DNA of 64,000 nt from Peptococcaceae bacterium UBA5318 (GTDB lineage: Bacteria; Bacillota; Peptococcia; DRI-13; UBA5318), in contig DHRG01000026.1 of NCBI GenBank assembly GCA_002408285.1, positions 20,460 to 84,459 of the forward strand, given 5' to 3'. Each line of letters opens with the position of its first letter. Position 1 is the first letter of the stretch. Below, piece by piece: positions 45,716-45,865 of the stretch. A model generated the notes under the pieces. It made no database searches. It was given only the letters and a program-made list of their open reading frames with translations, and was not told where the DNA came from. The position numbers were made by a program, and so were the translations under genes.

Positions 45716-45865
45716 ATGGCTTTGAAGAATCTTCTTATGAGATTCGGCGGTATTGTGGCGAGTTTAGCATTACTGGTAACATCAATGAATGCCAACACAA
45801 CCTGCATCTGCTTCATTCATCAGCCCAAACTGCCAAAAGGTACGGAGAAGCTTCGTAAATTTTAA
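45716..45865 (+). CDS. agrD: AgrD-like cyclic autoinducing peptide precursor (49 aa; not in ORF track)
   Basis: Hand translation: MALKNLLMRFGGIVASLALLVTSMNANTTCICFIHQPKLPKGTEKLRKF. It has an amphipathic/hydrophobic leader, a Cys-containing core, and the HQPKxP...LRK tail typical of clostridial AgrD peptides. GGAGGGAGG RBS 5 nt upstream. Its stop overlaps the agrB start (TAATG). Confidence 0.8.
   Translation: MALKNLLMRFGGIVASLALLVTSMNANTTCICFIHQPKLPKGTEKLRKF

What the first reader, a model, noticed from the sequence alone, without database searches (positions are those of the whole stretch)
45716..45865. Unannotated 49-aa AgrD-like precursor with a two-cysteine core (TTCICFI)
The gene is below the ORF-track cutoff. 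It has a strong RBS, and its stop overlaps the agrB start (TAATG). The sequence is MALKNLLMRFGGIVASLALLVTSMNANTTCICFIHQPKLPKGTEKLRKF. It has the three AgrD parts: an amphipathic leader, a Cys core, and a charged tail with the HQPKxP motif seen in clostridial AgrD peptides. By analogy with known autoinducing peptides (ring = Cys plus 4 residues), the predicted thiolactone ring is C-I-C-F-I, cleaved before His35. The second Cys inside the ring is unusual and leaves the ring size ambiguous (5 or 3 residues), or allows a disulfide.
Basis: partly seen in the sequence, partly recalled or inferred. Interest (0 to 1): 0.6.

Follow-up and report, generated by a model that had tools for sequence, protein, structure and literature searches.

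The report
Ordinary clostridial AgrD quorum-sensing peptide gene
The 49-codon gene is a genuine but ordinary precursor of a cyclic quorum-sensing peptide (AgrD), and it sits in a complete four-gene agr cassette of a type already known from Clostridioides difficile and many other clostridia.

Summary
A 49-aa ORF lies at 45716-45865 (+), with GGAGGGAGG just upstream and a TAATG overlap with agrB.

It matches NCBIfam TIGR04223 (AgrD family cyclic lactone autoinducer peptide) at 44.1 bits against a cutoff of 19. The same peptide is already in NCBI and ENA. An 88%-identical Dehalobacterium formicoaceticum homolog is annotated as a cyclic lactone autoinducer peptide.

The gene belongs to a response regulator, kinase, agrD, agrB cassette. 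That gene order recurs in most of about 80 related loci and is known from C. difficile R20291. Direct repeats 22 bp apart lie upstream of agrD, as expected for a LytTR (AgrA-type) binding site, and recur at the same position in 39 of 70 related loci.

Cys30 lies exactly five residues before HQP, as does the Cys in 116 of 117 family representatives, so the ring is C-I-C-F-I with cleavage before His35. The second Cys is not rare: 13-18% of family cores have one. These cores fall in at least five AgrB clades, and the position also holds A, W, F, Y or L.

The mature form cannot be determined here. It could be a tail-less thiolactone that rearranges to a lactam, and the role of the free thiol is open. 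Low novelty: a new member of a known kind.

The parts
43293..44021 (+). agrA-like response regulator (receiver domain plus LytTR DNA-binding domain), 242 aa
   Evidence: Pfam LytTR E 7.7e-19 and Response_reg E 7.7e-13. A homolog lies upstream of the kinase, agrD and agrB in most related loci.
44014..45330 (+). agrC-like sensor histidine kinase, 438 aa. The start is taken from the gene call in the identical contig L002. It has a polytopic N-terminal half, an RHD H-box and a GHKL ATPase domain.
   Evidence: Pfam HATPase_c_5 E 3.3e-24. Weak match to staphylococcal AgrC NF046015, E 1.4e-4, below its cutoff. Gene call 1017-2333 in L002. At least 5 hydrophobic segments in residues 56-200. Synteny.
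45566..45595 (+). Terminator-like hairpin (11 pairs, 8 G-C) followed by a short T-rich stretch (TTTGTAATTA). It separates the agrA/agrC unit from agrD/agrB.
45612..45643 (+). Two direct repeats, AGTTTTACCA (45612-45621) and AATTTTACCA (45634-45643), 22 bp start to start. Inferred binding site for the LytTR response regulator, which would make this the autoinduction promoter.
   Evidence: One match in the window and none in 100 shuffles. The repeat family appears. These are the only two exact ARTTTTACCA sites in 64 kb. 9-mer repeats spaced 21-22 bp occur at the same position in 39 of 70 related loci, against at most 3 loci for any other spacing. The repeats are conserved in L003.
45667..45675 (+). 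TGTGATAGT, an extended -10-like element. It has no good -35, as expected for an activator-dependent promoter. This is an inference.
   Evidence: Read directly. Conserved as TGTGATAGG in L003. Not reported by the simple consensus scan.
45705..45713 (+). Shine-Dalgarno sequence GGAGGGAGG
45716..45802 (+). agrD leader, residues 1-29. The N-terminus is amphipathic and basic, followed by a hydrophobic stretch and then the conserved N-x-N-T-T just before the Cys.
   Evidence: Hydrophobic moment about 0.45 for residues 1-12 and a hydrophobic stretch at residues 10-24. N27 is conserved in at least 90% of sequences.
45803..45817 (+). agrD core C30-I-C32-F-I34, the predicted five-residue macrocycle. Cys30 (45803-45805) is the ring-forming residue. 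Cys32 (45809-45811) is the extra, non-conserved Cys.
45818..45865 (+). agrD C-terminal follower HQPKLPKGTEKLRKF plus the stop codon. It is the inferred AgrB recognition and cleavage region, with the scissile bond at Ile34/His35.
   Evidence: Q36 and P40 are invariant and the A/L/R tail positions are at least 90% conserved. The same HQPK follows the core in C. difficile AgrD1 (PMC8534292). His follows CLWFT in C. perfringens (PMC7300355).
45865..46452 (+). agrB, the membrane cysteine peptidase and cyclase, 195 aa
   Evidence: PF04647 E 1.1e-43. R68, G73, H75 and C82 are invariant in 31 homologs. They correspond to the essential R70, G75, H77 and C84 of S. aureus AgrB (PMC10196373). Residues verified.

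Best explanation
The ORF is the agrD gene of a complete clostridial-type agr quorum-sensing cassette, in the order agrA-like regulator, agrC-like kinase, agrD, agrB.

**Inferred mechanism, by homology to characterised Agr systems:**
1. The precursor's N-terminal leader takes it to the membrane.
2. AgrB (His75/Cys82) cuts between Ile34 and His35 and removes the HQPKLPKGTEKLRKF follower.
3. The acyl group is transferred to the thiol of Cys30. This gives a five-residue thiolactone ring, C-I-C-F-I.
4. A second, unidentified protease removes the leader.

**Likely mature form.** Every natively detected clostridial AIP examined so far lacks an N-terminal tail. If this one does too, the thiolactone would rearrange by an S-to-N acyl shift to the head-to-tail cyclic pentapeptide cyclo(CICFI). 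That product carries two free thiols and has [M+H]+ 580.262.

**Signalling loop.** The peptide is sensed by the polytopic kinase (44014-45330). The kinase phosphorylates the LytTR regulator (43293-44021). The regulator binds the two direct repeats at 45612-45643 and raises agrD-agrB transcription, closing a positive feedback loop.

**Role of Cys32.** It occupies a variable, specificity-determining ring position and is not the cyclisation residue.

**Shown here:** gene identities, synteny, conservation of Cys30 and the follower, the catalytic residues of AgrB, and the repeat architecture.
**Inferred:** every chemical and regulatory step.
For: - **Family match:** TIGR04223 AgrD, 44.1 bits against a cutoff of 19.
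- **AgrB:** adjacent and translationally coupled, PF04647 E 1e-43. Its R68/G73/H75/C82 are invariant and correspond to the essential S. aureus residues.
- **Database status:** the exact peptide is in NCBI and ENA, and an 88%-identical homolog is named a cyclic lactone autoinducer peptide.
- **Ring-forming Cys:** Cys sits exactly 5 residues before [HY]Q..P in 79 of 82 sources. In an independent phmmer search of 1.84 billion representatives, 116 of 117 motif-bearing hits have it.
- **Purifying selection:** window against L003 gives 24 synonymous and 14 non-synonymous codon changes, with the core intact.
- **Synteny:** the RR-HK-agrD-agrB order is conserved. The same order is described for C. difficile R20291 (PMC3754575).
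- **Promoter repeats:** 21-22 bp-spaced direct repeats occur at a fixed distance upstream of agrD in 39 of 70 loci, against at most 3 loci for any other spacing and at most 2 in a control region. AgrA is known to bind paired direct repeats upstream of its promoters (PMC4227749).
- **Closest characterised relatives:** C. difficile AgrD1 reads ..SANSTCPWIIHQPK. The C. perfringens AIP is a tail-less CLWFT ring followed by His.
- **Tail-less, rearranging AIPs in Clostridia:** PMC8251862.
Against: - No transcript, peptide or binding data exist for this locus.
- Pfam's AgrD model (PF05931) does not match. From memory it is built on staphylococcal sequences; I did not check this.
- The N-terminal cleavage site is unknown, so the tail length and the S-to-N rearrangement are extrapolations.
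- The repeats were found by a pattern count, not by a binding assay. 31 of 70 loci lack a repeat passing the filter of at most 1 mismatch in 9.
- The cassette lies in a low-GC island flanked by IS remnants. A close relative, L008, has a frameshifted agrB. Functionality in this genome is therefore not guaranteed.
Confidence: 0.85

Rival explanations
1. The thiolactone is closed by Cys32 instead of Cys30, or equilibrates between the two by thioester exchange. This would give a three-residue ring, C-F-I, with an N-terminal tail ending in ..C-I.
For: Cys32 is kept through a synonymous change between the window and L003. Intramolecular thioester exchange is chemically plausible (inference).
Against: The extra Cys is absent from 82-87% of family cores. 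It occurs at position 2, 3 or 4. It alternates with A, W, F, Y or L in sister lineages, for example CICFI against CIAFI and CICLI against CIWLI. The Cys at -5 is present in 116 of 117 hits. To my knowledge, no characterised AIP has a three-residue ring.
Confidence: 0.04
2. The active signal is a further-modified form that uses the second thiol. Candidates are an intramolecular Cys30-Cys32 disulfide in the rearranged lactam (a bicyclic product, [M+H]+ 578.247) or a disulfide-linked dimer. This would make the signal redox-sensitive.
For: If the peptide is tail-less and rearranges as in PMC8251862, both thiols become free. Two-Cys cores recur in at least five AgrB clades, so the feature is tolerated repeatedly.
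Against: The hosts appear to be anaerobes: the closest named relatives are Dehalobacterium and other Clostridia. No thiol-oxidoreductase or other modifying gene is conserved next to the two-Cys cassettes. Repeated gain and loss of the Cys argues against an obligatory structural role.
Confidence: 0.08
3. The cassette is a silent or decaying passenger of a horizontally acquired island and produces no signal in this organism.
For: The island at about 43000-48500 has 29-39% GC, against 44-54% in the flanks, and has transposase remnants on both sides. A 44-aa lipoprotein-like stub lies where L003 has a 212-aa gene. L008 has a frameshifted agrB and no kinase or regulator.
Against: All four agr ORFs are intact and full-length here. 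The RBS, the promoter repeats and the catalytic residues are preserved. The identical cassette was assembled independently from a second data set, L002.
Confidence: 0.08
4. The ORF is spurious, and one of the overlapping ORFs (45682-45858 +, 45685-45816 -) or none is the real gene.
For: Short ORFs arise often by chance in AT-rich DNA.
Against: The HMM match has E 1.6e-11. The reading frame is conserved in about 80 loci, and the substitution pattern is codon-aware.
Confidence: 0.01

Closest known systems
Dehalobacterium formicoaceticum 'cyclic lactone autoinducer peptide' (P0007) with its ArgB-like protein (P0009, P0010)
   Same: The peptide is 88% identical over 42 aa, with the identical NANTTCICFIHQPK core. 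The AgrB proteins are 88% and 84% identical. NCBI already annotates it as an AgrD-family peptide.
   Different: It is annotated from Met8, giving 42 aa. The follower differs (KPPKDMNKLRKF). I found no paper on it.
Clostridioides difficile agr2 locus (agrACDB, strain R20291) and AgrD1 of strain 630
   Same: The gene order is the same: agrA, agrC, agrD, agrB (PMC3754575). AgrD1 has the same architecture..SANSTC-PWII-HQPK.. (PMC8534292).
   Different: The core is CPWII with a single Cys. In C. difficile, agrACDB was suggested to be a single transcript. Here a terminator-like hairpin and a separate repeat-bearing promoter lie between agrC and agrD.
Clostridium perfringens AgrD and its AIP (CLWFT)
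   Same: A five-residue Cys-initiated ring followed directly by His. The natural signal is thought to be a tail-less five-membered thiolactone (PMC7300355).
   Different: It has a single Cys. By my recollection the C. perfringens locus has agrB and agrD without an adjacent agrC/agrA pair.
Homodetic cyclopeptide AIPs (cAIPs) of Ruminiclostridium cellulolyticum, C. acetobutylicum and other Clostridia (Molloy et al. 2021)
   Same: They are AgrD/AgrB products with a conserved ring Cys. All detected products lacked an N-terminal extension and had rearranged from thiolactone to lactam (PMC8251862). This is the most likely fate of the peptide here.
   Different: The Rc-AIP1 ring (CWFWSY) and the C. 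acetobutylicum ring are six-membered and have one Cys. A two-Cys product would expose two thiols. Nothing has been measured for this family member.
Staphylococcus aureus AgrD/AgrB/AgrC/AgrA (agrBDCA)
   Same: The same four components are present, along with the same essential AgrB residues and paired direct repeats for the LytTR regulator.
   Different: The gene order is reversed. There is no hit to the Pfam AgrD model. The follower is basic (HQPKLPKG..) rather than acidic. Staphylococcal AIPs keep a 2-4 residue tail. No RNAIII-like element was found, and Rfam gives no match near the locus.

Membership tests
AgrD family cyclic lactone autoinducer peptide (NCBIfam TIGR04223) | Scores above the curated cutoff of the family HMM | tested here: met
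   44.1 bits against a cutoff of 19, E 1.6e-11, residues 10-41 on model positions 3-34 of 38
AgrD family cyclic lactone autoinducer peptide (NCBIfam TIGR04223) | Encoded next to an AgrB peptidase (PF04647) that carries the catalytic His and Cys | tested here: met
   A TAATG overlap joins it to a 195-aa AgrB (E 1.1e-43). R68, G73, H75 and C82 are invariant in 31 homologs and correspond to S. aureus R70, G75, H77 and C84.
AgrD family cyclic lactone autoinducer peptide (NCBIfam TIGR04223) | Tripartite precursor: a membrane-targeting leader, a core with a conserved Cys (or Ser) a fixed distance before the cleavage site, and a conserved charged follower containing Pro | tested here: met
   The leader has hydrophobic moment about 0.45 and a hydrophobic stretch at residues 10-24. 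Cys is at -5 from [HY]Q in 116 of 117 unbiased hits. The follower positions Q36, P40 and the A/L/R tail are conserved.
AgrD family cyclic lactone autoinducer peptide (NCBIfam TIGR04223) | Processed to a secreted cyclic (thio)lactone or lactam peptide | not testable with these tools
   Needs LC-HRMS of culture or heterologous agrDB expression. Predicted masses are given.
Pfam AgrD (PF05931) | Match to the Pfam AgrD HMM | tested here: not met
   No Pfam hit at E <= 1. To my recollection the model is built on staphylococcal-type sequences, which I did not check. Clostridial AgrDs are covered by TIGR04223 instead.
Complete agr-type quorum-sensing cassette (C. difficile agrACDB type) | AgrC-type kinase: a polytopic sensor plus an HATPase_c_5 GHKL domain | tested here: met
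   PF14501 E 3.3e-24. At least 5 hydrophobic segments in the N-terminal 200 aa and an RHD H-box. The match to the staphylococcal AgrC equivalog is only weak, 21 bits against a cutoff of 500.
Complete agr-type quorum-sensing cassette (C. difficile agrACDB type) | AgrA-type response regulator with a LytTR domain, in conserved synteny | tested here: met
   LytTR E 7.7e-19 and receiver domain E 7.7e-13. The RR-HK-agrD-agrB order is seen in most of 79 related loci.
Complete agr-type quorum-sensing cassette (C. difficile agrACDB type) | Paired direct repeats (a LytTR box) upstream of the signal-production genes, giving autoinduction | tested here: inconclusive
   The sequence architecture is present and conserved in position: repeats 22 bp apart at 45612-45643, and 39 of 70 loci with 21-22 bp repeats. 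Binding and induction were not tested.
Homodetic cyclopeptide AIPs (cAIP; Molloy et al. 2021) | The mature peptide lacks an N-terminal extension, so the thiolactone undergoes an S-to-N acyl shift | not testable with these tools
   The leader cleavage site cannot be read from the sequence. Only the conserved N-x-N-[TSA]-[TA] motif before the Cys is seen.

The most novel reading that the evidence does not exclude
Two-Cys AgrD cores such as CICFI would define a chemically distinct subclass of autoinducing peptides. After ring closure on Cys30, the internal Cys32 thiol would give the signal extra reactivity. The possibilities are thioester migration between the two cysteines, a dithiol lactam that oxidises to a bicyclic disulfide, or a dimer. 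Signal activity or lifetime would then report redox or oxygen exposure as well as cell density in strict anaerobes. I know of no chemically characterised two-Cys AIP, and the literature search found none. Cultured carriers exist: D. formicoaceticum, Anaerovirgula multivorans, Lutispora thermophila and Mobilisporobacter senegalensis.
Probability: 0.12. Interest if true: 0.5.

Novelty: new member of a known kind. Interest (0 to 1): 0.2.

Why it matters
It matters little beyond annotation. The finding shows that a Dehalobacterium-like anaerobe carries an intact, probably horizontally acquired, peptide quorum-sensing cassette.

Two by-products are modestly useful.
- **Comparative rules for this AgrD family.** The ring Cys is always five residues before HQP. 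The gene order RR-HK-agrD-agrB is conserved. A LytTR repeat pair spaced 21-22 bp lies at a fixed distance upstream of agrD. These rules allow confident automatic calling of sub-50-aa agrD genes and of their ring residues.
- **A subclass without chemistry.** About one core in seven has an extra Cys. To my knowledge no chemistry has been done on this subclass, and cultured strains are available to test it.

Tried and rejected
- **Pfam on the peptide:** no hit. I put this down to the model's staphylococcal bias (from memory, not checked), because TIGR04223 matches strongly.
- **Exact-sequence contig look-ups:** P0001 and P0007 returned nothing. AgrB and P0008 look-ups gave only short contigs, L001 and L002.
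- **Genome scan:** it did not return the source genome or D. formicoaceticum itself. The organism is therefore inferred only from 84-88% AgrB identity. Cluster look-ups of flanking proteins carried no names.
- **Solved structures:** no homolog of AgrB or of the downstream 258-aa protein by sequence.
- **Mobile-element searches:** no plasmid match to the cassette. The only phage match to the peptide is weak, E 2e-3, so neither a plasmid nor a phage origin is supported.
- **Rfam:** nothing near the locus.
- **Consensus promoter scan:** no more sites than in shuffles, and none upstream of agrD. The promoter proposal rests on the repeats and on a conserved TGTGATAG element instead.
- **Second LytTR site:** no copy of the AGTTTTACCA pair upstream of agrA or of the 258-aa gene.
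- **Literature on two-Cys AIPs:** the search found nothing relevant.
- **Rejected idea:** I considered and rejected the view that the agrD-before-agrB order is new. It is the published C. difficile arrangement.

Full report
**1. Observation**

The window holds a 49-codon ORF at 45716-45865 (+) that encodes MALKNLLMRFGGIVASLALLVTSMNANTTCICFIHQPKLPKGTEKLRKF. GGAGGGAGG lies at 45705-45713. The TAA stop shares a base with the ATG of the next ORF (TAATG, 45863-45867).

**2. Identity**

- The downstream 195-aa ORF is AgrB (PF04647, E 1.1e-43).
- The small ORF has no Pfam hit. It scores 44.1 bits (cutoff 19, E 1.6e-11) against NCBIfam TIGR04223, 'AgrD family cyclic lactone autoinducer peptide'.
- The exact peptide is already in NCBI and ENA. 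A 49-aa variant in JGI/IMG is named 'cyclic lactone autoinducer peptide'.
- An 88%-identical peptide with the identical NANTTCICFIHQPK stretch is annotated the same way in Dehalobacterium formicoaceticum.
- The two closest AgrB proteins, at 88% and 84% identity, are also from D. formicoaceticum.

'Unannotated' is therefore a consequence of the first stage's ORF-length cutoff and not of missing knowledge.

**3. Surroundings**

- Upstream lie a receiver-LytTR response regulator (43293-44021) and a histidine kinase with the HATPase_c_5 GHKL domain. The kinase runs from 44014 to 45330, by the gene call in the identical contig L002. It has at least five hydrophobic segments in its N-terminal 200 residues and an RHD H-box.
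- A terminator-like hairpin (45566-45595) follows the kinase region.
- Next come two direct repeats, AGTTTTACCA (45612-45621) and AATTTTACCA (45634-45643), 22 bp apart. They are the only exact ARTTTTACCA sites in the 64 kb. The pair pattern never arose in 100 shuffles.
- A TGTGATAGT extended -10-like element sits at 45667-45675, with no good -35.

**4. Related loci**

I scanned one genome per species with an alignment of 31 AgrB homologs. This gave 79 loci.

- **The ORF recurs.** A pattern scan found an AgrD-like ORF with Cys exactly five residues before [HY]Q[PED]..P in 79 of the 82 sources, counting the window, L001 and L002. In 67 of them an intact agrB begins within -12 to +70 nt of the agrD stop.
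- **The gene order recurs.** tblastn with the window's proteins shows regulator, kinase, agrD, agrB as the predominant arrangement. This is the order published for the C. difficile R20291 agr locus, agrACDB (PMC3754575).
- **Selection is visible.** Against the L003 copy (71% aa, 74% nt identity), 24 codons differ synonymously and 14 non-synonymously. The core and HQP are unchanged at the protein level, and both Cys codons are preserved, Cys32 as TGC to TGT.
- **The promoter architecture recurs.** 9-mer direct repeats with at most 1 mismatch, starting 155-205 nt upstream of the core, occur with 21 or 22 bp spacing in 39 of 70 loci. Any other spacing from 15 to 30 bp occurs in at most 3 loci, and a control region 180 nt further upstream gives at most 2. 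The repeat sequence differs between lineages while its position and spacing are kept. That fits binding sites that co-evolve with their LytTR regulators.
- **Fit to AgrA.** AgrA binds as a dimer to paired direct repeats upstream of P2 and P3 (PMC4227749). The 12-13 bp spacer between its 9-bp repeats is from my own recollection of Koenig et al. 2004. It would give the same 21-22 bp periodicity.

**5. Which Cys closes the ring, and how unusual the second Cys is**

The scan required a Cys at -5, so I checked this independently. I ran phmmer with the window peptide against 1.84 billion cluster representatives, which gave 130 hits at E <= 1e-3.

- With a pattern that leaves the -5 residue free, 116 of 117 motif-bearing hits have Cys there.
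- An additional Cys inside the five-residue core occurs in 15 of those 116 (13%), at position 2, 3 or 4. One core is CCYEC. In the genome-derived set it occurs in 13 of 74 unique peptides (18%), ten at position 3 and three at position 2.
- On an AgrB neighbour-joining tree, the two-Cys cores fall in at least five separate clades. The window and L003 (CICFI) are sister to a CIAFI group. The CICLI pair encloses a CIWLI. CMCYA, CMCWI/CMCFA and CCFIM/CCFLV lie elsewhere.

Position 3 is therefore a variable position that also holds F, W, Y, L or A, and Cys is one of its allowed residues. The ring-forming residue is Cys30, the ring is C-I-C-F-I, and the AgrB cut is before His35.

This agrees with the closest characterised relatives:
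- C. difficile AgrD1 reads ..SANSTCPWIIHQPK.. (PMC8534292).
- The C. perfringens signal is a tail-less CLWFT ring, with His as the next precursor residue (PMC7300355).

**6. AgrB**

R68, G73, H75 and C82 are invariant across the 31 aligned homologs. They match, with an offset of 2, the residues needed for S. aureus AgrB activity: R70, G75, H77 and the catalytic C84 (PMC10196373). No solved structure is detectable by sequence.

**7. Mechanism**

*Shown:* the parts and their conservation.

*Inferred by homology:*
- AgrB removes the follower and transfers the Ile34 carbonyl to the Cys30 thiol.
- A second protease removes the leader.
- The product is sensed by the kinase.
- The regulator activates the repeat-bearing agrDB promoter.

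The terminator and the separate promoter suggest two transcription units, agrA-agrC and agrD-agrB. Only the second carries the repeats.

*Likely final form.* Molloy et al. found that all native clostridial AIPs they detected lacked an N-terminal extension. They exist as lactams formed from a cryptic thiolactone by an S-to-N acyl shift (PMC8251862). The most likely product here is therefore cyclo(CICFI), [M+H]+ 580.2622, with both thiols free. I put this at about even odds, because the leader cleavage site cannot be read from the sequence. The conserved N-x-N-[TSA]-[TA] motif directly before the Cys at least suggests a conserved processing site close to it.

**8. Rivals**

- **Ring closure on Cys32.** This is contradicted by the comparative pattern.
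- **A disulfide or dimer form.** It is not excluded, but there is no conserved partner gene and the Cys turns over repeatedly.
- **A silent cassette.** The cassette lies in a low-GC island (29-39% against 44-54%) between transposase remnants. A close relative, L008, has a frameshifted agrB and no kinase or regulator. Silence is therefore possible. All four genes and their signals are intact here, however, and the same cassette was assembled from an independent data set (L002).

**9. Verdict**

This is a correct identification of an ordinary thing. It is a new member of a well-known peptide family, in a known cassette type, already recognised by NCBI's family model. The only mildly open point is the chemistry of two-Cys cores. 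These make up roughly one in seven of this family and, to my knowledge, have never been characterised.

Noticed in passing
window 41546-49536: The agr cassette sits in a low-GC island at about 43000-48500 (29-39% GC, against 44-54% in the flanks). Transposase remnants bracket it (41546-42361 DUF772; 49327-49536 HTH_Tnp_1). The island lies between nfeD/floA (38600-40699) and yabP/yqfD-like sporulation genes (49605-51119). It looks horizontally acquired.
   Followed up: partly
window 46564-47340 (+): A 258-aa protein with an N-terminal signal-peptide-like sequence, directly after agrB. It has no Pfam, NCBIfam or PDB match. No terminator-like site separates it from agrB, and one follows it at 47452-47474. 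It may therefore be co-transcribed with agrDB and be a quorum-regulated secreted product. It is not conserved in the other loci.
   Followed up: partly
window 45389-45523 (+): A 44-aa lipoprotein-like ORF (MKKIMLAITLLFLLLFCACSG...) lies between the kinase and the terminator. L003 has a 212-aa lipoprotein gene at the same position. This may be a truncated remnant.
   Followed up: partly
L008 3837-4544: A MAG (Clostridia bacterium SM3-B6.2) carries an agrD that is 90% identical and has the same CICFI core. Its agrB is split over two reading frames (4001-4084 and 4065-4544), and no regulator or kinase lies upstream. This is a decaying or orphan copy.
   Followed up: partly
L072 (937-1074 and 3858-3995); L074 (2300-2440 and 3834-3974): Tissierella pigra contigs carry two agrD copies each. 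In L072 each copy is followed by an agrB match. These are tandem duplicated signal-production modules.
   Followed up: no
L050 versus L052: A contig assigned to an 'Ignavibacteriae' MAG carries an agrD peptide and surrounding small ORFs identical to those of an Acetobacterium MAG (CFVFM core). The contig is probably mis-binned.
   Followed up: no
window 4532-4635 (-): A SAM riboswitch (RF00162, 87.9 bits), unrelated to the finding.
   Followed up: no
phage record MT836496.1 7060-7170 (-): A weak AgrD-like tblastn match (43% identity over 37 aa, E 2e-3) in an unannotated phage contig from human faeces. It may be a phage-borne agrD, or it may be chance.
   Followed up: no
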